This document shows positions 4,103-28,057 of a stretch of DNA of 32,000 nucleotides, in pieces; position 1 is the first letter of the stretch; every line of letters starts with the position of its first letter. The notes beneath the pieces are model-generated. The model worked only from the letters and a program-made list of their open reading frames with translations. It did no database searches and was not told where the DNA came from. The DNA is from Acaryochloris thomasi RCC1774 (GTDB taxonomy: Bacteria > Cyanobacteriota > Cyanobacteriia > Thermosynechococcales > Thermosynechococcaceae): assembly GCF_003231495.1 (NCBI RefSeq), contig NZ_PQWO01000008.1:120001-152000 (forward strand), written 5' to 3'. The translations under genes and the position numbers were made by a program.

Positions 4103-7100
4103 TCAAAGGTGAGACATATGCGCTATGTCTGATGCAGTTCTCTCAAGCTCTTCAAGACGAGTACGGGCGGCTTGTAAATCGGGAGACTCCAATCCCTCAG
4201 TAAATCGGTCGTAAATCTCTGACAAGAACTGGTGTGCGTCTTGAGCTTTGCCTTGGCTTTGCCATAATCGAGTTAATCCCACTGCGGCTCTTAATTCCAG
4301 CATCAGAGCATTCTGCGTATGAGAGAGATCTAAAGCTTGCTGGAAAAGACTCTCCGCCTCTTGTAGAGCTGTAGATAGACTTAATGAAAAAGAAAGCTCA
4401 CCAGCAACGCCTTCGGCTGTCATTGCTTCCGTCATTAGAATCTCAGCATTAAGACGATAAAGCTCTGGTTCCATATGGTGTTCTTGACGACGACTGGCCT
4501 CCTGCATCCCCTCATTCAAAATGTCGAGGGCTTCCTCTATGCGACCTGCTGTCCAGAAGGCTTCTGCCATCATCACCATAATGTGAGGCAAAGTGATGGA
4601 ACTCCCTGTCTTCCGAAATAGAACGACGCCTTCCTCAATTTCTTTGATGCCAGCATCAATTTTCCCCTGGATTGTCAGCGACCAACCGTGATAGATGGCA
4701 GCGACTGCAACCCACAACAAGAATCCCTCCTCCCGTGCACTTTTGAGCAAAGCTTCTGTGTTCTCTCGGACCCACTTAGAATCCTGTGCGTAGTGGTAGA
4801 AGAAGCAACTTGTCCCTAGAAGCAGGGCACCACTGGCGGGATGGCTCAATTCTGCTGATCGTTTAAATCCAGTCTGGATTTGCGCTTCAGCCTGTTCTGG
4901 ATATCCTTGCATCCACAGACTTCCTGCTAAAAAGATTCGGAACGCCAGAAAGGAAGCCATTTGAAAGGTGCGGATAATCTCCTGTTCGGTCTCTGGATCA
5001 TAGAGTGCAAGTCCTTGTTCTGCATGGGCTTGGGCCTGGGAAAAGTTGCCTTGGTAAAAGGCTGTATACCCAAGAGCATGGTGTGCCAGGATCGCTAGCT
5101 TGGGGTCACCAGAGGATGTTGCCCTTCGTTGAACATCACGGGCAGTGTTGAGGGCTTTATCAAAGTCACCTCGCATAAAGTAATTTGTCCACAATCCCCA
5201 GAGAGCAGTGGCAAGGGTCTCACTATTGCTTAAAGTCTGACTGAGGGTACGGATGCGATCGCAAGTTTGTTCCACCTCTGTTGCCGCCCATCCTCTCGTT
5301 GCCATATAAGCCGGTGCGAGATAAATTTGTAGCTCTAGCTCCCGCTGATCACGATCAGGTGTGTATGGCAGCTTCTGCAATAACGTCAATCCCTGAGTGA
5401 GGTGACTAATGGCCTCCACGCAGGCAGACCGAAGAACAGCTCTTTTGCCAGCCTGCATGTAGTAGAGAACTGCCGAGTCGTCCCGACCGGCCTCCTCATA
5501 ATGATGGGCCAATAATTCTAAACGCCCTTCAAGAGCATTCGGCAGCTGAGTTTCTAGCACCTCAGCAATATGGAGATGATAGCTTTGCCTACGACTTTTA
5601 AGTAAAGACTGGTAAGCCGCGTCCTGAATCAAAGCGTGCTTGAAGTGATACGACGCCTGAGGCGGTATTCCCTGCTGATAGAGCAAGCCAGCCTGAACCA
5701 ACTGCTCTAAGCCATGACGTAAAGCACCCAAATCCCAAGAGGACGCCGCTGCAATCAGCTCGTAGTTGAACTCGCGCCCAATTGTTGCCCCTAGTTGGGC
5801 AATCTCCTTAACCCGCGAGAGACGATCGAGCCGCGCAATCAGAGAATCCTGTAACGTTGCAGGAATAGCCAACAAAGAACGTTCTGAAACCTCAACTTCA
5901 CCGCTGTTTTCGCCCGGGAGGAAATTGAACTCTAGGACTGTTTTGGTCAGTTCTTCTAGATAAAGGGGGGTACCATCTGTCTTCGCCACAATTTGATCCA
6001 CCACCTTGCCCGGCAAAACTTTTGATCCAGCCATCGTGCCCACTAGAGTTCCTGCCTGTACGGAGGTTAAGGGCATCAGAGGGATAGAAACAAGGCGAAG
6101 GGAATTCTCCCACGACGGCGTGAATTCAGGCCGAAAGGTAAGCAGGATTAAGATAGAATGCTGTGCTCCTTTATCGATCAGGTGATTCAGCATATTCAAG
6201 GTGGAAGCATCCATCCAGTGCAGATCTTCAATCACCAGCAGGACAGGCTGTTGTGCAGCCCGCAACAATAGCACCTGCACCATCAGTTTTATTGTTTCCT
6301 GCTTCTGTCGCTCGGGGGTGAGAGCTAAGGGTTCATAACTAGGCTGAAAAGGAACCGAAAGCAGCGAGGCCACTAGAGGAACGCCCTGCTCTAAAGGCAG
6401 CCCATACTGGGTCAAAAACCCTTCAATTTTAGCGAGCTTTGCCTGCGTATCTTCCTCTCGCCCAAATCGGAGCACAACCTGCTCTAGCTGCTCAATAATC
6501 GAGTAAAAAGAGCTATTGCGATAGTAGGGTAAACCGCGAAGCTCTGAAAGCCATGCATTGGACTCATCTGCGACCTGTTCTTTCAGAGCCCACACCAAGC
6601 GAGATTTACCGATCCCTGCATCTCCCCCAAGCTCAACGATACGTGAGTGTCCACGTTTAGCTTGCGCCCAGCAGTCCAATAGAAGTGCCAACTCTTTGTC
6701 TCGACCCACCAGCGGAGACAAACCAGATTGTTCAGCCACATCAAGCCGACTTTTAGCCGTACTCTCATGCGTAACTTGGTAGGTACTAATAGGTTTAGAA
6801 ATTCCCTTCAGAATCGTTTCGCCCAGAAATTGGCACTCAAAGAAGCCCGCAATGAGTTGTTTCGTTGCCTTGCTAATCACCAACGTATTGGACTGAGCAA
6901 CCTCCTGCAGCCGAGCGGAGATATTAGGCGCTTCTCCCACGATCGCCATAGGCTCGCGTAAATCTCGGTTGCCCATTTCTCCCGCAACAACCAACCCAGT
7001 ATGAATACCGATCCGAACCGCTAATGTCGCTCCCCATCTATCCTCAAGCCGCCGATTTAACCGTTCAATCGCTTCCAGAATACCTAAGCCGCCTCGAACC

Positions 7101-7618
7101 GCGCGCTGAGCATCATCTTCATGGGCCTGAGGATAACCAAAATAAATTAAGAGTCCATCCCCCAAAAACTTAGCAATATGGCCCCCGAACAAAGCAGTTA
7201 CCTTACCAATCGAATCCTGGTAAGCCAGAAAGATCTCACGGAGATCTTCAGGATCAAATTGTTCAGACAGAGACGTTGAATTGACCATGTCACAAAACAT
7301 GACCGTAAGCTGGCGGCGCTCAGCAGCAGCACTTGGCGAACGCTCAATGGCTGAATAAAGATTCGCCGTCACCGGAACAGGCTGGAGCGACGGATGCACT
7401 TTTATCTCAGTCGCTCCAGAGCTATCGGCCTGTCCTTCCCAGATCAGCATGATGCCATCTTTATCCGCAGCAACCTCTAGAACCTGAACCAGCTCAAAGA
7501 CTAAATCCGCGAGCCAATCATCATCTAGATCAAACTGACGTTTGAGTGCCCGGTAGGAGATTCGTTCTCGACGCTGAAGGAGCGCAAGGGTCTGATCTAA
7601 TAATTCTTCAAAGGTCAT
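4103..7618 (-). CDS. Multidomain signalling protein: class III adenylate/guanylate cyclase domain + P-loop AAA/STAND ATPase + C-terminal TPR-like helical repeats
   Basis: 1171-aa ORF with an ATG start. Cyclase core at aa ~101-283 (LTVMFCDMVNST..., FLGDGLLIYFG, RIGIHTGLVVAGEMG). Walker A GGDAGIGKSRL at aa 331-341, Walker B-like LLVIEDLHWMD. The long C-terminal helical repeat region contains many A/L/Y/W-rich pairs. Confidence 0.85.
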   Translation of the reverse strand: MTFEELLDQTLALLQRRERISYRALKRQFDLDDDWLADLVFELVQVLEVAADKDGIMLIWEGQADSSGATEIKVHPSLQPVPVTANLYSAIERSPSAAAERRQLTVMFCDMVNSTSLSEQFDPEDLREIFLAYQDSIGKVTALFGGHIAKFLGDGLLIYFGYPQAHEDDAQRAVRGGLGILEAIERLNRRLEDRWGATLAVRIGIHTGLVVAGEMGNRDLREPMAIVGEAPNISARLQEVAQSNTLVISKATKQLIAGFFECQFLGETILKGISKPISTYQVTHESTAKSRLDVAEQSGLSPLVGRDKELALLLDCWAQAKRGHSRIVELGGDAGIGKSRLVWALKEQVADESNAWLSELRGLPYYRNSSFYSIIEQLEQVVLRFGREEDTQAKLAKIEGFLTQYGLPLEQGVPLVASLLSVPFQPSYEPLALTPERQKQETIKLMVQVLLLRAAQQPVLLVIEDLHWMDASTLNMLNHLIDKGAQHSILILLTFRPEFTPSWENSLRLVSIPLMPLTSVQAGTLVGTMAGSKVLPGKVVDQIVAKTDGTPLYLEELTKTVLEFNFLPGENSGEVEVSERSLLAIPATLQDSLIARLDRLSRVKEIAQLGATIGREFNYELIAAASSWDLGALRHGLEQLVQAGLLYQQGIPPQASYHFKHALIQDAAYQSLLKSRRQSYHLHIAEVLETQLPNALEGRLELLAHHYEEAGRDDSAVLYYMQAGKRAVLRSACVEAISHLTQGLTLLQKLPYTPDRDQRELELQIYLAPAYMATRGWAATEVEQTCDRIRTLSQTLSNSETLATALWGLWTNYFMRGDFDKALNTARDVQRRATSSGDPKLAILAHHALGYTAFYQGNFSQAQAHAEQGLALYDPETEQEIIRTFQMASFLAFRIFLAGSLWMQGYPEQAEAQIQTGFKRSAELSHPASGALLLGTSCFFYHYAQDSKWVRENTEALLKSAREEGFLLWVAVAAIYHGWSLTIQGKIDAGIKEIEEGVVLFRKTGSSITLPHIMVMMAEAFWTAGRIEEALDILNEGMQEASRRQEHHMEPELYRLNAEILMTEAMTAEGVAGELSFSLSLSTALQEAESLFQQALDLSHTQNALMLELRAAVGLTRLWQSQGKAQDAHQFLSEIYDRFTEGLESPDLQAARTRLEELERTASDIAHMSHL

Positions 7619-9622: not shown

Positions 9623-10327
9623 AAAAAATTCTGCCCCCAGGATGTGGAAAGTTTAATGCAACAAAGAAGGATTCGTTAGAGTCTTGGCTCATTGTAGAGA
9701 CCCTGCCACTGAAAATCTACTCTAGGTAACGCTCAACCTTCCTTTGATCAACAGATTTGTCAACAAAGCTCAAAATTCGGCCCTGGTTAAATTTCACCGG
9801 CAAAGGCGGCACCAGGACTGTTCGAGAGAAAGGACCATCCATTGCCGTAGGCAACGACAATGAAAGTAAGGGAAATAGATAACAGGATCAGTGTCTGAAC
9901 GTCTTAGCAAACTTATCAGGGTTCTAAACAAGTTATACGCAGACCTGATCGCTTTCTTTGATCTATGGGCACAATTACGTAGTAACACTACTTCTACAAT
10001 TAGTGTTTCTAGCTAAGTGCTACCCAGGACTGTCATCAGCCTTCATTAGACAAATGAGCTGCGCTGATGAAGCATCCCCATCTTGCATTGAACCACTTCT
10101 TCGAACCGTCAGATCAATCTGTTGAGTGGTTTCCCCAACAAAATTCATCAGCAATCGCCAAAGAAATCCACAAGATTTTTGGCCAGATTTTCGTCTTTTT
10201 TCATAAGACATAAGGCACACCAAGTTGGTGCTGACTTCTTGCTGCTTCTGAATACTTACTGAGTCTCATTGAGACCGCATATTTTTTCATTTATTTAGAT
10301 CGCTTAAATGCGTAGGTAAATTTTCCT

Positions 10328-10861
10328 ATGATTATTCCGCACGTCAATCTCCTCGGTTTTCTAGCATTATGCTGCTATTTCCTAACACTTTTTCCTACGC
10401 TGGTTAAGATTATCATTCCTCGTTTCAAGCGAGAAAAACTAGTCCTTCTACTACAAAGATATCGACGACAGGTAGGCATACTTGTCTTCTTGCTATCGGT
10501 GGGGCATGGGTTATCTTGGCTGATAATGAACCATAAGGATATTTTTGAACCAAATTTTCTTTGGAATTGTTGGCACGGAATACTGTTATTGGTTATTTTT
10601 GGCCTGTTGGCGGCTACATCTAATAACTGGAGCATAAAGATCATGAAGAAAAACTGGAAGCGACTTCATGCATTGACGTATGTCGCGATGTTTGTGATGG
10701 GTCTACATGTCTGGGATAAAATGTCCATTCGCTGGAGCGTCTTAACACCATTTTCTTTTTGCCTTGTCTTGGCGAGTATCGGTCTGTTCGGAATACGTGT
10801 TTGGATTCAAAGAACAACCAAAAAGCTTAATGTGGATCCGGCCTCTTCCTCATCAGTGTAG
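10328..10861 (+). CDS. Ferric-reductase-like / MsrQ(YedZ)-like heme-b transmembrane protein
   Basis: 177 aa with about 5-6 hydrophobic helices. RRQVGILVFLLSVGHGLSWL and TSNNWSIKIMKKNWKRLHALTYVAMFVMGLHVW match the RR..G...H and W..LH..Y....H pattern of the ferric reductase TM domain. AT-rich gene, ~38% GC in a sampled line. Confidence 0.55.
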   Translation: MIIPHVNLLGFLALCCYFLTLFPTLVKIIIPRFKREKLVLLLQRYRRQVGILVFLLSVGHGLSWLIMNHKDIFEPNFLWNCWHGILLLVIFGLLAATSNNWSIKIMKKNWKRLHALTYVAMFVMGLHVWDKMSIRWSVLTPFSFCLVLASIGLFGIRVWIQRTTKKLNVDPASSSSV

Positions 10862-10929: not shown

Positions 10930-12324
10930 ATGAGGCAACCGAACTGGAACAGAACCATGATTTTTCCTCGCTTGTGCGCCAGCCTGATGGCTATCGCGCT
11001 CACTTTCCTATGGATTGCGCCTCCGGCCCAGGCATTCTGTGGATTTTATGTGGCAAAGGCCGATACCAGTCTCTATAACAAAGCTTCACAAGTTGCGATC
11101 GCACGTGACAACAACCGCACCGTCGTCACCATGGCCAACGACTTCCAGGGCGACATCCAAGACTTTGCGATCGTGGTGCCGGTGCCCACTGTTCTTCAAG
11201 AAGATCAGGTCAATGTGGGCGACCCAAAAATTCTAGAGAAGCTCGATGCCTTTAGCGCGCCTCGTCTTGTGGAGTATTTTGATGACGATCCCTGTCAAAT
11301 CAGACCTGAGTTCGATGGTCGCTTGAGAGTACCCACTAGCGGCATTCAAGAATCTGCCGTGAGTGGTAATCGTTCAGATAAAAGCTTGGGAGTTACGGTT
11401 GAAGCCAAGTTCACGGTAGGTGAATACGACATTGTCGTTCTAGGAGCCAAGGAATCTAGCGGCTTAGAAACTTGGCTGAGGCGCAACGGCTACAAAATTC
11501 CGCAGGGCGCTCAGTCTTTATTACGGCCCTATATTCGCCAAAACATGAAGTTCTTTGTGGCGAAGGTCAATCTTGAGGAGTTTGCCAAATCAAAGACCCA
11601 ATTCCTACGCCCTATCCAGATGGCCTACGAGTCACCGAAGTTCATGCTGCCGATTCGTTTAGGCATGATTAATTCTGAGGGTGAGCAAGACTTAGTGGTC
11701 TATATCCTTTCGCCCAAAGGCCAAGCAGAGCTGACCAATTACCGGACGGTTAATATCCCCACAGACAGCGAGATTCCGGTGTACGTCAAGGAAGAATTCA
11801 ATGACTTCTACCCGGCAATGTTTAAGACGGCCTACGAACGCGAAGGCAAAAAGGTGGTTTTCCGTGAGTATGCCTGGGATATGGCAAACTGCGATCCCTG
11901 TTCATCGACACCCTTAACCCGTGAGGAACTGCGGCAGGCCGGTGTTTTCTGGCTCACGGAGCGCTCCCGCAATAGCTTAGTGGTGCCCCCTAGCTCTACC
12001 GGCGTGTTTATTACTCGTTTGCACGTTCGCTACAGCCGCAATCAGTTTCCTGAAGATCTGAAGTTTCAAGAGACAGCCAATCGTCAGCTTTTTCAGGGGC
12101 GTTATGTTCTGCGTCATCCCTTTGAAGGTGACGTTGATTGTGCTGAAGGACGAAGATATAAACGATCGCTCCCAGCCCGCTTTGAAAAAGAAGCCCAGAC
12201 CCTGGCAAAGCTCACCGGCTGGAATATCTCTGACATCCGCAGCAAAATGGGCTTTGACCAGCCTCAACCGACCCGCTGGTGGAAAAATCTCTGGAACTTT
12301 GTGTTTGATCACCCTGTGGCGTAG
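10930..12324 (+). CDS. Secreted conserved hypothetical protein (DUF2330-like)
   Basis: 464-aa ORF. Signal peptide MIFPRLCASLMAIALTFLWIAPPAQA|FCG begins at the alternative ATG 10957. The mature N-terminus FCGFYVAKAD... resembles DUF2330 proteins as I recall them. Host-like GC, ~58% in a sampled line. Confidence 0.5.
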   Translation: MRQPNWNRTMIFPRLCASLMAIALTFLWIAPPAQAFCGFYVAKADTSLYNKASQVAIARDNNRTVVTMANDFQGDIQDFAIVVPVPTVLQEDQVNVGDPKILEKLDAFSAPRLVEYFDDDPCQIRPEFDGRLRVPTSGIQESAVSGNRSDKSLGVTVEAKFTVGEYDIVVLGAKESSGLETWLRRNGYKIPQGAQSLLRPYIRQNMKFFVAKVNLEEFAKSKTQFLRPIQMAYESPKFMLPIRLGMINSEGEQDLVVYILSPKGQAELTNYRTVNIPTDSEIPVYVKEEFNDFYPAMFKTAYEREGKKVVFREYAWDMANCDPCSSTPLTREELRQAGVFWLTERSRNSLVVPPSSTGVFITRLHVRYSRNQFPEDLKFQETANRQLFQGRYVLRHPFEGDVDCAEGRRYKRSLPARFEKEAQTLAKLTGWNISDIRSKMGFDQPQPTRWWKNLWNFVFDHPVA

Positions 12325-12460: not shown

Positions 12461-14203
12461 ATGCGGATTGAGTCGCTAAGCGTCAAAAACTTCAAAGGCT
12501 TTGAGGAGCGATCGTTTGAGTTCCCGCATAGCTTCACACTAGTTGTAGGTGAAAATGCTTCTGGTAAGACTTCGATACTAGAAGCAACCACAGTTGCCTT
12601 GCAAAATATGTTCACAAAACTGCAAGGTGTTAATGCTTTGTCTGATAGTGAATTTGGTATTTCTGAAGAGCAGGTGCAGATTCGGAAGGAAGTCTATGGA
12701 AATTCTATTCGCTTTGAGCCTCAGCACCCTTCTTGGGTAGATGCTACCTTTAGTCATTTAGGGGAAAAACTTCAAAGCTATAGCAGTTTTAATACTACAT
12801 CTAAGAATGAGTTCGATGTATATTTTAGCTATAACCACTCAGACAAAAAAATTGTTCATGCAATCGCTGAAGACTTAAGGAATAAAGGAGTTTCTGTATG
12901 GCTAGATGATTGGGAGATATTACCAGGAAGGCCATGGAAGCAGGCTATTAAAGGTGCAATAAAAACTACTAGAAGTGTTGCGGTTTGCATTGGAGAACGT
13001 AGTATTTTAGGATGGCAAGGGGAGGAGCTTCAGTTATTCATAGATGAGTTCTCAAGTCGGAACATACCTATTATTCCAATCTTGTTGCCAAGCGCTTCTG
13101 CAAAAGAAATTGATCTACCTTTATTTCTCAGGAACTTTGCTTGGGTAGATATGCGAAAAGAGGGATATACAACTGATATCCTGAGGCGAATTCATTTGGG
13201 TATCGTCGGTGAGCTAGACCTTAGAGAAAAGTTGCCATTAGCTGATTATCAGACTCAAAATGGAGAGGTTATCCCTTTAGCTGATATTTTTGAGCGAATA
13301 AGTCAGTTTCCCCGCATTCCAATGCCTGTCATCGCTTTCTATAACTCTAATCGTTTACCTCCGAATCAAAAAACTACCCTTTCAGTAAATCGTTCCAAAA
13401 CAGATCTATCCCGACGCTATGGCTATCAGGATTGTCTGAAGGGTAAATTAGCTATTCCAGACATTTTTTCTTGGTTGCGTGACGAACAGTTTTCTGGCTT
13501 GCAAGAAAATACTGAAAGCCTCTTGTTCCAAACAGTGACTTATGCGATGTGTTCATGCATTCCAGGAGCAACGAGCATAGAGTATAGCATTCGGCAGTAT
13601 GATCTGGTTGTTGAGTTTGATAATGGCGATATCAAGCCCTATGGAAGCCTAAGCGATGGTCAGCGCATTATGCTATCTCTTGTCGCTGATATTGCCTATC
13701 GTGCTGCCTGGATGAATCCCCACCTTGAAGATAAAGTGCTGCAGGAAACTGATGGTGTAATACTTATTGATGAACTTGATTTACATCTCCATCCAAAATG
13801 GCAGCGTCGTGTAGTTGACGACCTCAAGCGAACCTTTCCAAAAATTCAATTTATTGTCACCAGTCATTCCCCTTTTATCATTCAGTCTCTTGAGCCGGGA
13901 GAACTGATTGTCCTAGATGATGAACCGCAAATTGAATATGCTAATCGCGGCGTTGAAGAGATTGCCCGGTTTATCCAGGGAGTTGATCAACCTTATACTA
14001 GCCAGCGATATGTGGATCAAAAAGCAGCATCAAAACGTTATTTCTCCCTTCTCCGTGAAGGTCGTTCAGAAGATGACCCTGAACTACTGGAAGCGAAGCG
14101 AAAATTAGATGAGCTAACCGCTCATTACCCTGATAATCCTGCCTCCGATGCGTTTCTAGAAATACAGCGTCTAGCAGCACAGGGGAACAATCACAACGAA
14201 TGA
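12461..14203 (+). CDS. SMC/ABC-type (COG3950, AAA_15/AAA_21-like, PtuA-like) ATPase with an embedded TIR domain
   Basis: 580 aa. N-terminal MRIESLSVKNFKGF...LVVGENASGKTSILEA (Walker A, aa 30-37). TIR-like block at aa ~117-250. ABC signature-like SLSDGQR (aa 396-402). Walker B VILIDELDLHLHP (aa 432-444). H-loop FIVTSHSP (aa 464-471). Confidence 0.85.
   Translation: MRIESLSVKNFKGFEERSFEFPHSFTLVVGENASGKTSILEATTVALQNMFTKLQGVNALSDSEFGISEEQVQIRKEVYGNSIRFEPQHPSWVDATFSHLGEKLQSYSSFNTTSKNEFDVYFSYNHSDKKIVHAIAEDLRNKGVSVWLDDWEILPGRPWKQAIKGAIKTTRSVAVCIGERSILGWQGEELQLFIDEFSSRNIPIIPILLPSASAKEIDLPLFLRNFAWVDMRKEGYTTDILRRIHLGIVGELDLREKLPLADYQTQNGEVIPLADIFERISQFPRIPMPVIAFYNSNRLPPNQKTTLSVNRSKTDLSRRYGYQDCLKGKLAIPDIFSWLRDEQFSGLQENTESLLFQTVTYAMCSCIPGATSIEYSIRQYDLVVEFDNGDIKPYGSLSDGQRIMLSLVADIAYRAAWMNPHLEDKVLQETDGVILIDELDLHLHPKWQRRVVDDLKRTFPKIQFIVTSHSPFIIQSLEPGELIVLDDEPQIEYANRGVEEIARFIQGVDQPYTSQRYVDQKAASKRYFSLLREGRSEDDPELLEAKRKLDELTAHYPDNPASDAFLEIQRLAAQGNNHNE
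12809..13210 (+). other. TIR domain inserted within the ATPase (domain-level feature)
   Basis: FDVYFSYNHSDKKIVHAIAEDLRNKGVSVWLDDWEILPGRPWKQAIKGAIKTTRSVAVCIGERSILGWQGEELQLFI follows the TIR pattern F(D/I)xFxSYxxxD...G..V(W/F)xD......G......I...I..S...(V/I)......S.W...EL. The putative catalytic Glu is retained (E188/E189, codons 13022-13027). Confidence 0.8.
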
Positions 14204-14889
14204 GGCCCGTTGAACGAGGTGATGCCCCTCAAACCTTCAGTGACTATAGAGCAGCTAAACCATTCCTGGTCAACCGTTTGGGAGACTATTGTAGCTATTG
14301 TGAACGCCCCATCAAGACAAATCTGGCTGTTGAACACGTTCGCCCCAAAAATCTCTACCCTGAGCTACGAGAAGACTGGGGTAACTTCTTGTTGGGGTGT
14401 GTAAACTGCAACTCGACAAAAAGCGATAAGGATGTTTCTCGCGACAAAGTTCTACTGCCCGATCAGGACAACACGTTCTTGGCCTACGTCTATACCCGCG
14501 AAGGTCAGGTACTACCTAACCCTCAATTGGGTGACGTGCTTCAAAAAAGGGCTGAAGCAACGCTTGCATTGACGGGTCTGGATAAATTTCCAGATGAGTT
14601 TGATACTGATGCTTCGGGTTCCGCTGCATTGGAAAGATGGCAACAGCGATCGCGAGCGTGGCAGGATGCACAGAATTGCTTTCATGCACTCTCTCAAAAC
14701 GATTCAGAAGAGATACGCAAACTCATCATTGTTGCAGCCCGTAACACGGGTTTCTTTTCGGTATGGATGATCGTTTTCAAGAGTGATCCCATCATGCTTC
14801 AAGCCTTTATTCAAGAATTCCCTGGCACGTCACCCAAATGCTTTGACACAACTGGCAGTCCCATCAACCGTCCAGGCGGGCATCTCTAA
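14200..14889 (+). CDS. HNH endonuclease (PtuB / TIGR02646-like), Cys4 zinc type
   Basis: 229 aa. C31-x2-C34 ... E45-H46 ... N62 ... C67-x2-C70-N71..K74 (CSYCERPIKTNLAVEHVRPK...GNFLLGCVNCNSTKSDK). The start ATG 14200-14202 overlaps the upstream TGA 14201-14203. A purine-rich AGGGGA lies ~14 nt upstream. Confidence 0.85.
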   Translation: MRPVERGDAPQTFSDYRAAKPFLVNRLGDYCSYCERPIKTNLAVEHVRPKNLYPELREDWGNFLLGCVNCNSTKSDKDVSRDKVLLPDQDNTFLAYVYTREGQVLPNPQLGDVLQKRAEATLALTGLDKFPDEFDTDASGSAALERWQQRSRAWQDAQNCFHALSQNDSEEIRKLIIVAARNTGFFSVWMIVFKSDPIMLQAFIQEFPGTSPKCFDTTGSPINRPGGHL

Positions 14890-14927: not shown

Positions 14928-17900
14928 CTATCCCTCATGAATCAGGCGCAGCAGCTCATCGGTAGAGATCTTGCCGCTCATCTCTGCTCCTTCCAATAAA
15001 CTATCCGCCAGATCGCGTTTGTGCTGATGGAGATCGACGATTTGCTCTTCAATGGTGCCCTTAGCAACGAGGCGATAAATCGTTACCGGACGCTGTTGCC
15101 CAATGCGGTGTGCCCGATCTGATGCCTGATCTTCCACGGCTGGGTTCCACCAGGGGTCCATATGGATCACGTAATCAGCGGCGGTCAAATTTAGCCCGGT
15201 GCCCCCTGCTTTGAGGCTGATTAAAAAGACATCTCCCTCCCCGGCCTGGAAGGCATTGACGCGCTCCTGACGTTTTTTTGCGGGTGTACTGCCATCTAAA
15301 TATTGGTAGGCAATCTTTTGTTTGTCTAAATACTGTCGCAGAATTTGGAGATGATCCACAAACTGGCTGAATACAAGGGCTTTGTGATGGTTGGCCAGCA
15401 GCTCTGCTAAGGTTTCGCTGAATAGCTGCAGCTTGGCACTCGGAGGTGGAGCTTTGGGGACAACAAGCTGAGGATTGCAGCAGGCGCGACGCAGCTTCAT
15501 GATTTCAGCCAAAACCTGAAGATGCTTGGCTCCGGCTTCGGAATCGCTTTCGGTTAGCTTTGCGATCGCATCCCTCCTCAGCGCTTCATACAGCGCCATC
15601 TCTTCTTGACTCAGCTCCACCTGTAGCGTAATTTCCGTACGAGAGGGCAGCTCTTCTAAAACCTGATTTTTAGTTCGCCGCAACAAGAACGGCTGGATCA
15701 ACTTTTTTAAGCGATGGCGAGCCTGGTGATCCTGATATTTCTCAATGGGTGTAGCAAACCGTTGATTGAAGCGATCCAGCGATCCCAATAGACCCGGATT
15801 AATAAATCGAAAGAGATTCCATAGCTCCCCGAGATGATTCTCAATCGGCGTGCCCGTGGTCAGAATCTTGAACCCAGCCTGGAGATTCATGGCCGCTTGC
15901 GATCGCTTTGTCGCCATATTCTTGATCGCCTGGGCCTCGTCCAGAACAGTGGTTTGCCATTCGACCTTAGCCAGCATCTGAGCCACGTCTTCCTGCTGCA
16001 GAAGACCATAGCTACACACCAATAAATCAAAGGGCTGGAGCTGATCCAATAGCTGCTGTCGGTCACTGTTCCCAAACTGCAGCGGCTTCAGCGTAGGCGC
16101 AAACCGCTGGGCCTCGCTGAGCCAGTTCATCCCCACAGATGTAGGTGCAATCACTAACGTGGGTCCCTGGGGTGCACGAGTGAGAATCACCGCCAGCGCC
16201 TGTAGCGTCTTACCTAAGCCCATATCATCAGCCAAGCAAGCCCCGACGCCCCAGTGAGAGAGTCGCGCTAGCCACTCAAATCCTTCTTCTTGATAATCTC
16301 GCAGCTCTGCCTGCAGCGTTGAGGGAAGTTTCGGCTGAAATTTTTTGACATCCTTCAGTTTTTTGACGTGGGCTTTCCAATGCTTGTCTGCCTTGAGTTG
16401 GCCCACATCATCGACCATATCCTCAAGAGCCACTGCCGTCAGGGGGTGAAAGCGGAGGCCATCCCCCTGTGTTTCAGAGTAGGCCCGCAGCTCATCGAGG
16501 CGCTTGCGAAATTCCTGGGTCAGGGCCACAAACTGGCCGTCGCCAAGGGGGATAAAGCGGCTGGGGGTTTGCTCTAGCAGCTTCAGCAGTGCCTGCATGT
16601 CTAGCACCTCATCGTCAGCAAGCTGCAGTTCACCGCTAGCGGCAAACCAGTCCCGCTGACGCTTGATCTGAAGCTGAAACTGACCGACATCGGCTCGGTG
16701 GCTGACGCGCAGCTTCTCGCCCTCTGGCCACTCCAGGACGATATGGTCACCTAAATCCTGCAGCTCTAGCAATAGCTCTAGACAGTTCTCGGGCTCTTCT
16801 AATAGCCACTCACTCTCTTGGCCCTCGTGTCGAAGCAGCGTCGGGCAGGCCGATATCGCAGTCTTAGACAATTTCCGTTCTTGTTTCAAATCGCGAGTGG
16901 TTTGCAGTCGCCGATCGCCAATTTCAGCAATGACGGTTTCGCCACCGCTGCCGGGTCGATAGTAGGGGCCTCCTTCAGGGAACGGGCGTGAAAAAACCGC
17001 CACCTTGAGACCTTCTCCAGCGGGCAATAGGTGAACATGGGGCGTTGCTTGAGACGGCACCTCTGTCGCACTAGCCACGCCGCCGCCGATATCAGACTGG
17101 ACGGTGACCAGATTAGAGACGGCGTTAATGGCCGCGAGCACCTGCTCCTTCGCTCGTTCCGGCACTGTAAGGCGATTCTTCTGGCCCAGAATCGTGGCAA
17201 TTTGATGATGGTCTGCCTGAATCTTAATCACCTTAAGCCGCGTCGGGGTTTCTTTAATCACTACAATTTCGTCATTTGACTTAAAGTTTGGCGTTAGAGT
17301 CAGCGCTAGTTGACCCGCTTTTTCTTTTTGAATCAGCAGTTCAGGTTCCCCTTTAACGACCTCAATAGGGATGGTAGGGGTCTCTTCCCAGAAAACATAG
17401 GGATGGCCGATGAGAGTTGCGATCGCACACTCTGCAAACCGATACTCAGTTCCGCTGTGGTAGCCATAGGTGGAGTAGGTTTCAATTTGATTGCAAATCC
17501 GCAAATCCTGAGCAGAGAGGTACTCCAACTCACCCGACGGATTCTTATAGAGACGCTTCATGGCAATGGGACGTCCCTTACTCCAGCCTCCCTTTGCACT
17601 CAGCTTTTGCTCACGGGGCTGCAGGGACCAGTTTTTGCCATATAGAGTGATAAACCAAGCCATCCTAAAATCTGAGGCTACGGGAGAGACTGGCTCTTGA
17701 TGGAGCTTGGCCAACGCCTTGAGGCTCATCTCCCAAGGCTCCAGAGTGTGAATAATATTCACGAGCGGTTGAATGCCGCTGCCCTGTCGCAAAATCTCGG
17801 ATTGGGTCTCATAAGTGGCGTCAGGCTCTAGCTTGGCCAGCAGTGACGCCACCTCCATCGCCACCCAGTGATATCCCGATCGCATGGCCTGTTGATAGAG

Positions 17901-19142
17901 GGGCATCAGTATGCGGGGCAGTTTTTTCTGGGCACGATCGGCATTGACCCAGTACTGACACAGCGAGCCAAAGAGAATATCTAGGCTATGGTGTCCCTCG
18001 TAGGGATGGATGTAGGCTCCTAGTAGAGAGGCTTTTGATGATAAATCACCCTGCTGGAGTTGTAGAAATTGATTGAGCCAGACATAGGTGGTTCGCAGCC
18101 AGTAGTGCTTGGGCTGACGAACCATCTGCTGGGTATAGCTCTGGGCTTCCTGGAGTCGTTCTGGAGAGCCGTCCTGGAGCAGCGCCAGAATAAAGAATAA
18201 ACCACTGATGTTGCCAAAGTAGGCCTTACGTTTCTTTTTGACTGCCCGGAGGTGGGTCAGCGCCCGAGTGTAGTGGGCAATGGCCTTCGAGGTGTCTCCC
18301 TGTAAGAACGCCAGCCAGCCCCAATAGGTGGCTGCGCTGTCTTCTGAAAGCTGAGCGAGTGACTCCAGCACCGCAGGAACCTCTTCGACATCGCCACGCA
18401 ACAGAAGCTGTTCCGCCAGCATCAGCTTTAAAGCCGCGGAACAGCGAGAATTCTCAGCCACAGACTCTTCCAGAAGCATCTCAAAGGCTTCTTCGCAGTT
18501 TGCCAACGTCAAGACAGAATGGTCGAAAATACCGTAGAGGCCAAGCTCATAGAAGTTCGGAGACAGCGATTGGAACCATTCAGCATCAAAGGGATTACTG
18601 CAAATCGTAGCGATCACCTCTGCCTGAGTCAGTTTGTCCTGAGGGTATTTAGCTTGGTGGTAGTCTTTGATCTGCGCTTCAAAAGAAGCGAAGTCCTGCC
18701 GATAAAAGTCAATACGGGCCTCACGAAGGAATTGTGCTTCACTCTTAAATCGCCGAGGAGCATTTTGATGAGGGTAGTAAATTGGGATTGCCTTTTGGAC
18801 CACCCGGGCGTAGACAGCAAACCGCCCTGCCTTCACAGCATCACGAGTTGCGATCTCTGCAATGAATGGATGACACTGTGGTCCCTGACCACGCTCTTGC
18901 AACAATAATCCTGCATCGAGCAGCCCATCAATATACGGCTTCAGATTTTTACTAATAAAGGGGGCTTGATCAAGATCTCGAATCCCCAGCTTGTTAAGGC
19001 ACTCCATGATGGTGGTGCGATTAACCGGTTCATAAACAACGGCAAGAAGCTGCACAATCTCTTGTGCAACAGCAGGGCAGGCATTGTAAAGATCTTGAAG
19101 CTGACTACGTTGCTTATCGATCTTGAGATCGGAATCGAACAT
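14928..19142 (-). CDS. SNF2/RapA-family DEAD-like helicase with a large N-terminal helical extension and a SNF2-associated middle region
   Basis: 1404 aa with an ATG start. Helicase motifs [15 protein letters not shown] (I), [10 protein letters not shown] (II), [18 protein letters not shown] (III), KALVFSQF (IV), [39 protein letters not shown] (V-VI). The N-terminal ~480 aa is helical/TPR-like with no motif I recognise. Confidence 0.9.
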   Translation of the reverse strand: [1404 protein letters not shown]

Positions 19143-26425: not shown

Positions 26426-28057
26426 ATGAGTTCAGCACTGACCCCGGATGTTTTTCTCACTGGTACAACTCTCCAGCAGGGTAAATACCGTCTAGATAGC
26501 ATTCTGAGCCAGTCCGACAGCCTAATTATCTATCGTGCGACCCATCGTTGCTTAGACAAAACTGTTACTATTCAGACCCTCCGCAACCGCCCTGAATTAA
26601 ACCCCAATCAGCCCAGGATAGTACAGCGATTCATCTCTGCGGCTCAGAGAGCGGCGCAAGCATCTCACCCTCATCTCATCCACATCAACGATTTGTTCGT
26701 GGAATTAGAGTTACCCTTCCTGGTCATGGATCATCTCGTTGGAGAATCTCTAGGGGAACTTACGGCGAAGCACTCCTTTTCAGAGGAAAAAGCGGTTGAA
26801 TATATTTTTCAGGTTGCTCCCGCTCTAAGTGCCCTGCACCGGCAAAATTGTCTGCACGGATCTCTACAGCCCGAGCATCTGCTACTGCAGGCAGCAGACA
26901 ACCGCATCGTTCTTACAGACCTCGGTCTGGAGAAGTCACTGATGTCAGGGTCGCTAAACTCAGGCTCAGCAGGTTACATCGCGCCTGAGCAATACTCCTC
27001 CAATCAGGGTTTAAGCCCCGCTACTGACGTCTACGCCCTTGCGGCCACTTTTTACACCCTATTAACCGGCCATCGGCCTGTGTGTGCAACATCAAGGCAG
27101 CAAACGTCACTGCCTTCACCTCGTCAATTTTATCCACAACTGAGCCATGCCAGTGAGCAGGCAGTCTTCACTGGCATGGCGCTGAGAGCTTCAGAGCGTC
27201 CTCAATCAATTGAGCAGTGGCTGGCGCTGTTGAGGCCAATGCCTCCATCTAAACCACCAAAGATCAAAGCAACCGTTACACACCTTCAGAAGACGACCCA
27301 GCTCCAGGGTGCTTCGACCGCAAAGCCCTCCTCTGCCCCCCTAAAGCCCCACAGACAAGTTCCTAACGCAACCGCCGAGGCTGAAGTGGCGGCATCTCTC
27401 CTAGTACCGCCGTCTACCCCCCTAAAAGACATGTCTACCCGTTCAAAGCCCCTGACTCATCCAAATCATCCAAAATTTCCGACACGCTTTCTTTGGCTCA
27501 CTAGCGCCATTGCAGGCGTAATGGGACTAGGCTTCGGCTTTGTACTACGGTTTAACTACCTTTCTCAATTTTCAGCCCCCCAGGCTGTCAGTCCCAAAAG
27601 TACAAAAGTTCAAAAAGAATCTTTCCCTCCCAGACCAAAGGCTGAGAGTTCAGACCTTAACCCAACAAATAATGCAGTAGGCAATCTCGCTCCAGAACCA
27701 GGCCCTAGACCACAAGATTTTGCAAACGTTGAGGAACCTGTCAAAAGAGAGAACATCACAGGCACAGCAGGCAGACAGACTCTACGCTCAAGTCAGCCTG
27801 CCCCCAGAGACTCAATTGTAGAGTCTGAGATCGGTGAAATACCTCATGAGTTGACCCCTGCAGGACTAGCGATTCCTCAAGAAGATAACAGCCCTGCACT
27901 GAGTGACTGGGCTGACATCGTCCCCAGCCAGTCAGCTTATCAAACAACATCGCCGGTAGATGAAGAAGCAGACCGCCCCGCAGAGGTCTCACCCCTACCC
28001 GAAGACTTCGATCTGTCTGATGCCCCCGACCGCGAGTTTCTAACACCACAAATTTGA
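26426..28057 (+). CDS. Kinase-fold protein lacking catalytic residues (predicted pseudokinase), with one TM helix and a Pro/Ser-rich tail
   Basis: Hanks-kinase fold is recognisable (HPHLIHINDLF, FLVMDHLVGESL, GYIAPEQ, DVYALAATFYTLLTG). However, the Gly-loop is SQSDSL, VAIK is VTIQ (aa 47-50), HRDxKxxN is HGSLQPEH (aa 144-151) and DFG is DLG (aa 165-167). TM helix FLWLTSAIAGVMGLGFGFVLRF at aa 355-376. Confidence 0.75.
   Translation: MSSALTPDVFLTGTTLQQGKYRLDSILSQSDSLIIYRATHRCLDKTVTIQTLRNRPELNPNQPRIVQRFISAAQRAAQASHPHLIHINDLFVELELPFLVMDHLVGESLGELTAKHSFSEEKAVEYIFQVAPALSALHRQNCLHGSLQPEHLLLQAADNRIVLTDLGLEKSLMSGSLNSGSAGYIAPEQYSSNQGLSPATDVYALAATFYTLLTGHRPVCATSRQQTSLPSPRQFYPQLSHASEQAVFTGMALRASERPQSIEQWLALLRPMPPSKPPKIKATVTHLQKTTQLQGASTAKPSSAPLKPHRQVPNATAEAEVAASLLVPPSTPLKDMSTRSKPLTHPNHPKFPTRFLWLTSAIAGVMGLGFGFVLRFNYLSQFSAPQAVSPKSTKVQKESFPPRPKAESSDLNPTNNAVGNLAPEPGPRPQDFANVEEPVKRENITGTAGRQTLRSSQPAPRDSIVESEIGEIPHELTPAGLAIPQEDNSPALSDWADIVPSQSAYQTTSPVDEEADRPAEVSPLPEDFDLSDAPDREFLTPQI

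What the first reader, a model, noticed from the sequence alone, without database searches (positions are those of the whole stretch)
12809..13210. The TIR module is a clean insertion between Walker A and the rest of the ATPase, and is the most AT-rich part of the window
The insertion point is after the Walker A beta-alpha unit and before the PVIAFYNSNR / signature / Walker B half. This is topologically where SMC/Rad50-like ATPases place their coiled-coil or dimerisation insert. TIR self-association could therefore be gated by ATP-driven head engagement (inference). The W...EL motif (GWQGEELQLF) retains the Glu that is catalytic in TIR NADases. Hand counts of GC on 60-nt lines give 30% for 12781-12840, 33% for 12841-12900 and 35% for 13741-13800. 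This compares with 58% for 11881-11940 in the upstream gene and 48% for 14221-14280 in the HNH gene. No HIP1 octamer occurs in the ATPase gene, whereas the HNH gene has one at 14646. This pattern is compatible with recent horizontal acquisition or domain shuffling of the ATPase/TIR part.
Basis: partly seen in the sequence, partly recalled or inferred. Interest (0 to 1): 0.65.

Follow-up and report, generated by a model that had tools for sequence, protein, structure and literature searches.

The report
TIR domain nested inside Septu ATPase
A cyanobacterial copy of the two-gene Septu anti-phage system carries a complete TIR (NAD-cleaving type) domain spliced into a surface loop of its ATPase, an arrangement I found in no other sequence, so it is a rare variant of a known defence system and not a new kind of system.

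Summary
ptuA (12461-14203, 580 aa) is a Septu PtuA ABC ATPase, and a Pfam TIR_2 domain (aa 120-237, E 4.5e-24) interrupts it. ptuB (14200-14889) is the HNH partner.

A profile built from 227 TIR-less PtuAs matches both flanks with contiguous profile coordinates. With aa 112-266 removed, the protein aligns in one stretch to solved E. coli PtuA (8EE4). The insertion is therefore clean, spanning about aa 112-270 (nt 12794-13270).

Across 251 homologs this loop is 22-81 aa long (median 39). Here it is 183 aa. No other internal insert turned up, although N-terminal TIR-PtuA fusions with a PtuB partner do exist.

- The site is not the SMC/Rad50 coiled-coil site (IS2, about aa 329-349). It lies upstream of the Q-loop strand, at the IS1 loop.
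- GC does not separate the TIR from the rest of ptuA (P 0.17-0.49), and the missing HIP1 is uninformative (P 0.52).

Synonymous codon use does mark the insert: 6 of its 10 Arg codons are AGR, against 0 of 25 in the rest of ptuA. The whole cassette is absent from the related loci examined.

The catalytic Glu (E189) is kept. The likely function, which is inferred, is a Septu system with a second, NAD-depleting effector gated by PtuA assembly.

The parts
12461..14203 (+). ptuA: Septu ABC ATPase gene (580 aa) carrying the nested TIR
   Evidence: PADLOC PtuA PDLC00278 E 1.9e-111. Pfam AAA_15, AAA_21, SMC_N and TIR_2. PDB sequence hits to PtuA 8EE4 and to retron Ec78 and Ec83 PtuA.
12461..12793 (+). 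PtuA Walker A lobe, aa 1-111. Includes Walker A GENASGKT (aa 30-37, nt 12548-12571) and the four-strand antiparallel sheet (aa 73-110).
   Evidence: Alignment A1. Matches positions 11 to about 120 of the TIR-less PtuA profile. Secondary structure from the AF2 model.
12794..13270 (+). The whole insert, aa 112-270 (boundaries good to about 5 aa)
   Evidence: Profile coordinates are contiguous across the gap (135|135). Deleting aa 112-266 gives a single alignment, 1-331 to 8EE4_A 1-369. The loop is 183 aa here against a median of 39 (range 22-81) in 251 homologs. All six AGR codons of ptuA lie inside it.
12809..13201 (+). TIR domain proper, aa 117-247 (betaA to alphaE)
   Evidence: Pfam TIR_2 aa 120-237, E 4.5e-24. 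AF2 model of the insert: mean pLDDT 73.7, with beta-alpha units in TIR order. Foldseek PDB hits to TIR domains with probability 1.00, TM 0.76-0.81 normalised to the target, including AbTir 7uxu, MyD88, SARM1 and SPARTA.
13025..13027 (+). Codon GAG for E189, the putative catalytic Glu of the W185-x3-E189 motif
   Evidence: Invariant W and E in alignments A2 and A4. Aligned with the W-x3-E of PdTIR, AbTIR and Cat1.
13202..13270 (+). Linker between the TIR and the resumed ATPase, aa 248-270. Modelled at low confidence.
   Evidence: pLDDT below 50 at model residues 146-157 (aa 250-261). No match to either the TIR or the PtuA profile.
13271..14200 (+). Rest of PtuA, aa 271-580:
- helix 273-282
- strand PVIAFYNSNR, aa 289-298 (nt 13325-13354)
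- short IS2-equivalent, about aa 329-349 (nt 13445-13507)
- signature LSDGQR, aa 397-402 (nt 13649-13666)
- Walker B VILIDELD, aa 433-440 (nt 13757-13780)
- TSHSP, aa 467-471 (nt 13859-13873)
- C-terminal helices that bind PtuB in solved complexes
   Evidence: Profile positions 135-432 match aa 275-577 (score 406 bits). Invariant columns in A1. Motif positions. IS2 mapping from the alignments to Ec78 PtuA together with the domain limits given in PMC12673091.
14200..14889 (+). ptuB: HNH nuclease partner (229 aa). Its start overlaps the ptuA stop by 4 nt.
   Evidence: PADLOC PtuB PDLC00315 E 4.7e-82. Pfam HNH E 1.3e-7, covering the full profile 1-47.

Best explanation
This is a type I Septu defence cassette (PtuA ABC ATPase plus PtuB HNH nuclease). 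It is accessory to this cyanobacterial chromosome.

A complete TIR domain of the NAD-hydrolase type, together with a linker of about 25 aa, has been spliced in frame into a variable surface loop of the PtuA head. The loop lies between the antiparallel sheet of the Walker A lobe and the helix and strand that lead to the Q-loop position. This is the 'IS1' or 'm loop' position. Every ATPase motif is left intact.

Shown here: the architecture, the exact site, the retention of the TIR core motifs including the catalytic Glu, the rarity of the arrangement, and a codon signature that marks the insert as a separate piece of DNA.

Inferred: the protein still assembles as PtuA head-to-head dimers and higher oligomers that hold PtuB. 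The IS1 loops of a dimer face the same groove, so the oligomer brings two or more TIR domains together. TIR NADases need TIR-TIR contacts to form an active site. A change in assembly or nucleotide state triggered by phage would therefore switch on NAD+ cleavage alongside the HNH nuclease. The result would be a Septu system with two effectors.
For: Identity as Septu:
- PADLOC PtuA E 1.9e-111 and PtuB E 4.7e-82.
- PDB sequence hits to PtuA structures.
- Walker A, signature, Walker B and His-loop residues all lie in invariant columns.

Clean insertion:
- The profile of 227 TIR-less PtuAs is matched contiguously on both sides.
- The deletion construct aligns in one stretch to 8EE4_A, with the junction at K109|R110.
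- Loop length is 183 aa against a median of 39 aa in 251 homologs.

Site:
- The junction maps to K177|P178 of Ec78/Eco7 PtuA, between the msDNA-contacting residues R171 and K180 (PMC12673091).
- The coiled-coil domain 255-310 maps about 60 residues downstream.
- IS1 faces the msDNA cavity (PMC12475279). The m loop is longer in stand-alone PtuA (PMC12819146). IS1 is proposed for trigger recognition in AriA (PMC11464382).

TIR competence:
- TIR_2 E 4.5e-24.
- Confident TIR fold.
- 20 of 30 highly conserved family columns are kept, including S123, D128, VWLD.WE, G156, W185, E189 and P206.

Recurrence of the combination:
- Two independent clusters of N-terminal TIR_2-PtuA, each with an overlapping HNH gene.

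Mosaic origin:
- AGR codons are 6/10 in the insert, 0/25 in the rest of ptuA (P 1.3e-4) and 58/507 in the other ORFs.
- The codon-adaptation index of the insert is 0.692, against 0.777 +/- 0.021 expected. None of 3000 simulations reached the observed value.

Accessory status:
- No Septu in any of the 79 related DUF2330 loci. In the nearest relative the flanking genes are directly adjacent.
Against: - No activity was measured. NADase function, oligomer state and gating are all inference.
- The protein is a singleton: a cluster of one sequence on one contig. There is no evidence of purifying selection on the fused form.
- The TIR departs from its nearest relatives at 10 of 30 highly conserved columns, including H124Y and R195D, which are 100% conserved elsewhere.
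- The full-length AF2 model has pLDDT below 50 across aa 99-283, so the position of the TIR relative to the head is not modelled.
- The residue-level mapping of the junction onto Ec78 PtuA lies in a poorly aligned stretch. The region alone finds no PDB hit.
- A bulky domain at IS1 could block PtuA assembly or DNA access instead of being regulated by it.
Confidence: 0.5

Rival explanations
1. The TIR is not an enzyme here. It acts as a protein-interaction module at the IS1 loop. Either it is an extra oligomerisation surface that reshapes the PtuA assembly, or it is a sensor or bait that recognises a phage factor and so changes what triggers this Septu system.
For: - IS1 is the loop implicated in ligand or trigger contact in related ATPases (PMC12475279, PMC11464382, PMC12819146).
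- PtuA homologs carry many N-terminal sensor-type domains: LRR, TPR, REC and HARE-HTH.
- One N-terminal TIR-PtuA (P0255) appears to lack the W-x3-E Glu in a weak pairwise alignment (E 0.15).
- The window TIR deviates at several conserved columns.
Against: W185 and E189 and the other core motifs of a catalytic-type TIR family are intact. The closest solved sequence relatives are NAD-cleaving TIRs: Cat1, PdTIR and AbTIR.
Confidence: 0.2
2. The insertion is a recent, neutral or mildly harmful accident. The gene is intact, but the fused protein has no selected function, or the Septu system is inactivated.
For: - The protein is a singleton.
- No second example was found in the top 120 word-based hits, the top 150 representatives, the metagenome, viral, plasmid or phage scans, or the TIR-profile search.
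- The unassimilated codon signature suggests a recent event.
Against: - The reading frame is open across 580 codons with a 4-nt overlap to ptuB.
- The insert lands exactly in a loop that tolerates length changes.
- It brings a full domain plus a linker and breaks no motif.
- TIR plus PtuA has arisen independently at least twice more.
Confidence: 0.15
3. The TIR makes a signalling nucleotide (a cyclic ADP-ribose isomer, as ThsB does in Thoeris). That signal activates an effector encoded elsewhere, or PtuB itself.
For: Bacterial TIRs of this general type include signal-producing enzymes (established knowledge of Thoeris). AbTir, a cADPR-isomer producer, is among the structural and sequence hits.
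Against: No ThsA-like, SIR2, SLOG or Macro receptor gene appears among the window ORFs scanned with Pfam or PADLOC. No TIR-signal-binding domain was detected in PtuA or PtuB.
Confidence: 0.07
4. The nested TIR is an assembly chimera and does not exist in the organism.
For: It is a single contig with a single sequence. The insert has a different codon signature from its flanks.
Against: A chimera would have to join in frame at both ends, inside a permissive loop, and deliver exactly one complete domain. The composition changes gradually and there are no repeats of the kind that cause mis-assembly at the junctions.
Confidence: 0.03

Closest known systems
Type I Septu (PtuA/PtuB), e.g. E. coli PtuAB, PDB 8EE4/8EEA
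   Same: - Two overlapping genes.
- PtuA ABC ATPase with all motifs, no N-terminal extension and no coiled-coil flap.
- C-terminal helical region.
- PtuB HNH nuclease of about 229 aa.
- With the TIR removed, the protein aligns end to end with 8EE4_A.
   Different: - About 159 extra residues (TIR plus linker) in the loop after the strand equivalent to 8EE4 residues 101-109.
- The signature motif is LSDGQR, with Gln as in retron-type PtuA, where E. coli Septu PtuA has Leu (PMC12819146).
N-terminal TIR_2-PtuA fusions with PtuB (P0246, P0255; loci L144-L146)
   Same: TIR plus PtuA in one polypeptide, followed by an overlapping HNH gene.
   Different: - The TIR is placed before the ATPase, not nested in it.
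- Their TIRs show no significant similarity to the window TIR (E 6.2 and 0.15), so these are independent acquisitions.
- I found no paper describing them.
Retron type I-A PtuA (Ec78/Eco7, Ec83; PDB 9KJX, 9NNB, 9E8Z)
   Same: The same ATPase family. The equivalent loop (IS1 or m loop) is functionally used there to contact msDNA (PMC12673091, PMC12475279, PMC12819146).
   Different: - Retron PtuA has an N-terminal extension and a coiled-coil (IS2) flap, and it depends on an RT and msDNA.
- No RT domain was found in the neighbouring ORFs scanned and no Rfam family is matched in the window.
- IS2 is short here.
Oligomerisation-activated TIR NADase effectors (AbTir, SARM1, SPARTA TIR-APAZ, Cat1)
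   Same: TIR fold with the W-x3-E catalytic motif. The proposed logic is that a sensor-driven assembly brings the TIRs together.
   Different: In those systems the TIR is a terminal domain or a separate protein. Here it is nested inside the nucleotide-binding domain of an ABC ATPase.
PARIS AriA (ABC ATPase with IS1 and IS2 inserts)
   Same: A related ABC ATPase in which IS1 holds an inserted element near the nucleotide-binding domain that is proposed to recognise the trigger (PMC11464382).
   Different: AriA IS1 is three helices, not an enzymatic domain. The partner is a TOPRIM nuclease.

Membership tests
Septu type I (PtuA/PtuB) | PtuA-family ABC ATPase with intact Walker A, signature, Walker B and His-loop | tested here: met
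   PADLOC PDLC00278 E 1.9e-111. The motifs lie at aa 30-37, 397-402, 433-440 and 467-471, in invariant columns.
Septu type I (PtuA/PtuB) | Adjacent co-oriented PtuB HNH nuclease gene | tested here: met
   Gene 14200-14889 overlaps the ptuA stop by 4 nt. PDLC00315 E 4.7e-82. Pfam HNH covers the full profile.
Septu type I (PtuA/PtuB) | No reverse transcriptase or msDNA partner (this separates it from retron I-A, also called Septu type II) | tested here: met
   No RT domain in the neighbouring ORFs scanned. No Rfam hit in the window. There is no N-terminal extension and only a short IS2.
Septu type I (PtuA/PtuB) | PtuA6:PtuB2 assembly, ATP-inhibited nuclease, anti-phage activity | not testable with these tools
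   Needs biochemistry, cryo-EM and phage assays.
TIR-domain NAD+ hydrolases | TIR fold (flavodoxin-like, betaA to alphaE) | tested here: met
   Pfam TIR_2 E 4.5e-24. AF2 insert model with mean pLDDT 73.7. 74 Foldseek PDB matches at E <= 0.001; the 50 listed are essentially all TIR-domain (or related SEFIR) structures.
TIR-domain NAD+ hydrolases | Catalytic Glu in the W-x3-E motif of helix alphaC | tested here: met
   W185 and E189 are invariant in A2 and A4 and align to PdTIR, AbTIR and Cat1.
TIR-domain NAD+ hydrolases | NAD+ cleavage activity that depends on TIR-TIR assembly | not testable with these tools
   Needs an enzyme assay.
SMC/Rad50-type coiled-coil insertion site (IS2) of ABC ATPases | The insert lies between the Q-loop and the signature motif | tested here: not met
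   The TIR (aa 112-270) lies upstream of the PVIAFYNSNR strand (aa 289-298). The Ec78 coiled-coil domain 255-310 maps to about aa 329-349 (PMC12673091).
IS1 / m-loop insertion site of OLD-SMC-like ABC ATPases | The insert lies after the antiparallel sheet of the Walker A lobe and before the helix and strand that lead to the Q-loop | tested here: met
   Secondary structure: strands 73-110, then the insert, then helix 273-282 and strand 290-294. The junction maps to 8EE4 K109|R110 and Ec78 K177|P178. Equating this with the published 'IS1' and 'm loop' rests on position and on residues R171 and K180 (PMC12673091, PMC12475279, PMC12819146). It was not checked on coordinates.
Thoeris | The TIR protein (ThsB) is accompanied by a ThsA-type effector (SIR2 or TM with SLOG or Macro) | tested here: not met
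   No such domain in any window ORF scanned.

The most novel reading that the evidence does not exclude
A natural Septu system in which an NAD-depleting TIR effector has been grafted onto the sensor loop (IS1) of the ABC ATPase. One ATPase assembly would then control two different effectors, the HNH nuclease and the TIR NADase. TIR activity would report directly on the head-engagement or oligomer state of PtuA. If true, it is a ready-made probe of how Septu senses infection.
Probability: 0.35. Interest if true: 0.65.

Novelty: new variant of a known kind. Interest (0 to 1): 0.45.

Why it matters
Septu is one of the commonest defence systems, yet how PtuA senses infection is still unsettled. 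ATP level and phage proteins have both been proposed (PMC12819146, PMC12673091).

A PtuA with an enzymatic TIR nested in the IS1 loop would give a built-in readout of PtuA conformational state. It would also be an example of an ABC ATPase head tolerating a whole-domain insertion at a site other than the classical coiled-coil site.

The finding adds TIR to the accessory domains fused to PtuA. It suggests that TIR plus Septu is a recurrent combination, with at least three independent joins. I found no paper describing this in the searchable library.

The practical limits are that the nested form is a single sequence and that nothing about its activity is known.

Tried and rejected
1. A word-index search with the TIR segment alone found nothing. 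A profile of metagenome relatives was needed instead.
2. Exact look-up of the window protein in the contig index found nothing on record.
3. The full-length AF2 model built with a PtuA-only alignment gave pLDDT below 50 over the TIR. A mixed PtuA plus TIR alignment (A3) was misaligned by MAFFT and was discarded. Only the insert was then modelled, so the orientation of the TIR relative to the head is unknown.
4. I tested whether the 81-aa loop of the closest homolog P0003 is a degraded TIR. It shows no similarity and was rejected.
5. I looked for flanking repeats or target-site-like duplications around the insert. Only short matches of doubtful significance turned up.
6. I looked for nested-TIR PtuAs in metagenome contigs, viral contigs, plasmids and phages. 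There were none.
7. GC and GC3 as markers of the TIR were rejected. HIP1 absence was rejected as uninformative.
8. Li et al. 2024 (PMC12318543) and Krishnan et al. 2020 (PMC7544218) are not held. The IS1/IS2 definitions and the Septu biochemistry are therefore taken second-hand from papers that cite them.
9. A PDB search with the junction region alone gave no hit.
Full report
WHAT IS THERE

The finding lies in an ORF at 12461-14203 (+) of 580 aa. The next ORF, 14200-14889 (+, 229 aa), overlaps its stop codon by 4 nt.

Pfam places a TIR_2 domain at aa 120-237 (E 4.5e-24). ABC-type ATPase models (AAA_15, AAA_21, SMC_N, AAA_23) are split on both sides of it.

Against PADLOC, the ATPase is PtuA (best model E 1.9e-111, matched in two stretches) and the downstream gene is PtuB (E 4.7e-82). 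This is therefore a Septu cassette.

Solved-structure sequence hits are E. coli Septu PtuA (8EE4) and retron Ec78 and Ec83 PtuA for the ATPase, and Cat1, PdTIR and AbTIR for the middle part.

IS THE INSERTION CLEAN, AND WHERE EXACTLY IS IT?

The closest homologs are 421-470 aa long and have no TIR. In the alignment, the extra segment of the window protein lies between the N-terminal roughly 110 residues and the conserved PVIAFYNSNR strand.

I built a profile from 227 TIR-less homologs. It hits the window protein twice: profile 11-135 on aa 1-138 (the reliable part ends near aa 112) and profile 135-432 on aa 275-577. The profile is contiguous across the gap and nothing is missing from it.

Deleting aa 112-266 turns the fragmented PDB matches into a single alignment, 1-331 to 8EE4_A 1-369. 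The junction falls at K109|R110 of the E. coli protein.

I measured the length of the segment between the equivalents of residues 104 and 287 in 251 homologs. The median is 39 aa and the range is 22-81. The window protein has 183.

The insert is therefore about aa 112-270 (nt 12794-13270).

A model of the insert alone, built with 49 TIR homologs, has a mean pLDDT of 73.7. It shows the TIR order of beta-alpha units, followed by a low-confidence linker (aa 250-261) before the native PtuA helix resumes. Foldseek finds TIR structures with probability 1.00, including AbTir, MyD88, SARM1 and SPARTA.

THE TOPOLOGY CLAIM

It is not that site.

In retron-type PtuA the ATPase domain is residues 64-254 plus 311-442, and the coiled-coil domain is 255-310 (PMC12673091). 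The alignments put Ec78 residues 174-235 opposite window aa 268-328, and Ec78 309-437 opposite aa 350-479. The coiled-coil (IS2) site is therefore about aa 329-349 here. It is short, as expected for stand-alone Septu PtuA, which lacks the flap (PMC12673091, PMC12819146).

The TIR lies upstream of the PVIAFYNSNR strand, directly after the four-strand antiparallel sheet of the Walker A lobe (strands 73-110). Its junction maps to K177|P178 of Ec78 PtuA, between R171 and K180. Both of those residues contact msDNA (PMC12673091).

Three published descriptions fit this position:
- the IS1 loop, whose basic residues face the msDNA cavity (PMC12475279);
- the 'm loop', which is longer in stand-alone PtuA (PMC12819146);
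- IS1 of PARIS AriA, which lies near the nucleotide-binding domain and is proposed to recognise the trigger (PMC11464382).

The residue-level mapping lies in a weakly aligned stretch and was not checked on coordinates.

THE TIR ITSELF

Its nearest relatives are at most about 45% identical. In the metagenome scan the TIR sits at or near the N-terminus of most of them, in small proteins or in proteins of 1000-1200 aa. The best profile-search hits are small TIR proteins and TIR-WD40 proteins. None of the 63 metagenome loci has PtuA halves next to the TIR.

The insert begins within a few residues of where the start Met of those relatives aligns. This fits capture of the N-terminal domain of such a protein.

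W185 and E189 (W-x3-E) are invariant in the family and align with the motif in PdTIR, AbTIR and Cat1. Of the 30 columns that are at least 80% conserved among 49 relatives, the window keeps 20. It departs at F121Y, H124Y, S125N, S126H and R195D, among others.

The enzyme-type core is therefore intact, but the domain is somewhat divergent.

HOW UNUSUAL IS IT?

The protein forms a cluster of one sequence on one contig. No other protein had a TIR nested in PtuA in any of these searches:
- the best 120 hits of a 5.8-billion-protein word search;
- the best 150 of 1.84 billion representatives scanned by HMMER;
- the best 120 TIR-profile hits;
- the plasmid, phage and viral collections.

These lists are only the top of much larger hit sets, so rarer or more distant examples cannot be excluded.

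By contrast, 23 of 251 homologs carry N-terminal extensions. Among those annotated are TIR_2 (P0246, P0255), REC, LRR, EAD1, PNP_UDP_1, Metallophos, TPR and HARE-HTH. Both TIR_2-PtuA genes are followed by an overlapping HNH gene. Their TIRs show no significant similarity to the window's.

TIR plus Septu has therefore arisen at least three times, but only here by nesting. I found no paper describing any of these forms.

COMPOSITION AND HISTORY

- ptuA as a whole has the lowest GC3 of 21 ORFs (0.346, against 0.449-0.584 for the others). Without the insert it still differs from the pooled other ORFs at P 4e-11.
- Insert versus the rest of ptuA gives P 0.49 for GC3 and P 0.17 for all positions.
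- One would expect 0.65 HIP1 sites in ptuA, so finding none has P 0.52.
- At the 60-nt scale the most AT-rich spot of the window is 10277 (25% GC).

Synonymous codon choice does separate the insert.
- The reference for the codon-adaptation index was the 19 other ORFs. Given the insert's own amino-acid sequence, its index is 0.692. The expectation from the usage in the rest of ptuA is 0.777 +/- 0.021, and none of 3000 simulations was as low.
- The rest of ptuA (0.789) matches the host median of 0.792.
- The main driver is arginine. All six AGR codons of ptuA lie at aa 140-255. That is 6 of 10 Arg codons in the insert, against 0 of 25 in the rest of ptuA (Fisher P 1.3e-4) and 58 of 507 in the other ORFs.
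- I picked out the AGR contrast after seeing which codons drove the index, so its P value is optimistic. The index test was chosen beforehand.

The cassette as a whole is accessory. The search returned 79 related DUF2330 loci (the best 80 of 561 matches), and none carries Septu. In the nearest relative (87% identical DUF2330) the SNF2 gene that follows ptuB here lies directly upstream of DUF2330, in the opposite arrangement. Septu therefore sits at a rearrangement breakpoint. The neighbourhood is housekeeping (PsaL, TlyA-like, RibD, kinases), not a defence island.

HOW IT PROBABLY WORKS

Established for relatives, as reported by the papers cited:
- PtuA forms head-to-head nucleotide-bound dimers and higher assemblies that clamp PtuB through C-terminal helices.
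- In stand-alone Septu, ATP binding restrains the nuclease, and infection relieves that restraint (PMC12673091, PMC12819146, PMC12065111).
- TIR NADases need TIR-TIR assembly to form their active site. This is established knowledge for SARM1, AbTir and SPARTA.

Inference: the IS1 loops of a PtuA dimer face the same groove, so the nested TIRs would be held close together or kept apart depending on the assembly or nucleotide state of PtuA. That would give an NAD-depleting output in addition to the HNH nuclease.

The signature motif keeps Gln401 (LSDGQR), as in the hydrolysing retron PtuA. E. coli Septu PtuA has Leu at this position (PMC12819146). ATP turnover is therefore possible but unproven.

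The rival explanations are:
- a non-catalytic scaffold or sensor role at the trigger loop;
- a recent insertion with no selected function;
- a Thoeris-like signalling role, for which no receptor gene is present in the window;
- an assembly artefact, which is very unlikely given two in-frame junctions.

VERDICT

The feature is real and the architecture is described precisely. It is a new variant of a known system, not a new kind of system.

Its coiled-coil analogy and its GC and HIP1 reasoning do not. Its suspicion of domain shuffling is supported, but by different evidence: codon usage and synteny.

Function is inferred only, and the nested form is known from a single sequence.

Noticed in passing
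window 14928-19142 (-); L002 5495-9712: The 1404-aa SNF2 helicase next to ptuB scores very strongly against PADLOC DpdE and ZorD models (E 4e-195). It is nevertheless conserved (78% aa identity) in the nearest relative, where it lies directly upstream of DUF2330 in a divergent arrangement. It is probably a core gene. Septu sits at the rearrangement breakpoint.
   Followed up: partly
window 12485-12497 and 12765-12777: There is an exact 13-nt direct repeat, AAAAACTTCAAAG. The second copy ends 17 nt before the N-terminal junction of the insert. Only 1.6% of mononucleotide shuffles contain any 13-mer repeat. It may be chance or a trace of the recombination event.
   Followed up: partly
window 13235-13246 and 13274-13285 (aa 259-262 and 272-275): The linker and the resumed PtuA helix both encode (L/I)PLAD, 13 aa apart (a 12-nt repeat with one mismatch). 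By my own estimate a match of this size is expected by chance (about 2.5 in the 1.5-kb region), but it lies at the C-terminal junction.
   Followed up: no
window 14200-14889 vs 12461-14203: ptuB and the ATPase part of ptuA differ in composition. GC3 is 0.47 against 0.355 (P 0.0045), and AGR codons are 4/16 against 0/25. The operon may be mosaic in more than one place, or the two genes may be under different constraints.
   Followed up: partly
P0003 aa ~93-178 (closest homolog, 470 aa): The closest TIR-less homolog has an independent expansion of about 40 aa at the same loop, with an internal repeat (LVDRGTERNPTVPT / LVDRGTVRTPTEV). It shows no similarity to TIR. The loop looks like a hot spot for length change in this subclade.
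   Followed up: yes
P0124, P0125, P0129, P0140, P0164, P0202, P0217, P0228, P0246, P0255; loci L144-L146: PtuA homologs carry many N-terminal accessory domains: TIR_2, REC, LRR, EAD1, PNP_UDP_1, Metallophos, TPR and HARE-HTH. The two TIR_2 forms keep an overlapping PtuB gene. I found no paper describing this diversity.
   Followed up: partly
window 13649-13666 (aa 397-402): The signature motif is LSDGQR, with Gln as in ATP-hydrolysing retron PtuA (Q361). E. coli stand-alone Septu PtuA has Leu at this position and is reported to lack ATPase activity (PMC12819146).
   Followed up: no
window 4103-7618 (-) and 26426-28057 (+): A 1171-aa adenylate/guanylate cyclase-AAA_16-TPR protein gives weak PADLOC Pycsar-cyclase hits, and a Ser/Thr kinase gives PD-T4-6 hits. 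Both look like generic domain matches, not defence systems.
   Followed up: no
window 10236-10350: The most AT-rich 60-nt stretch of the window (25% GC at 10277) is here, at the 5' end of the ferric-reductase-like membrane protein gene and just upstream of it. It is not in the TIR.
   Followed up: no
L001 8001-9949: The closest PtuAB pair (P0002; about 61-66% aa identity) sits in a 62% GC genome with ptuA GC3 of 0.69, next to a transposase and an integrase-family gene. The window's 42% GC ptuA is therefore compositionally far from its nearest known relatives.
   Followed up: no
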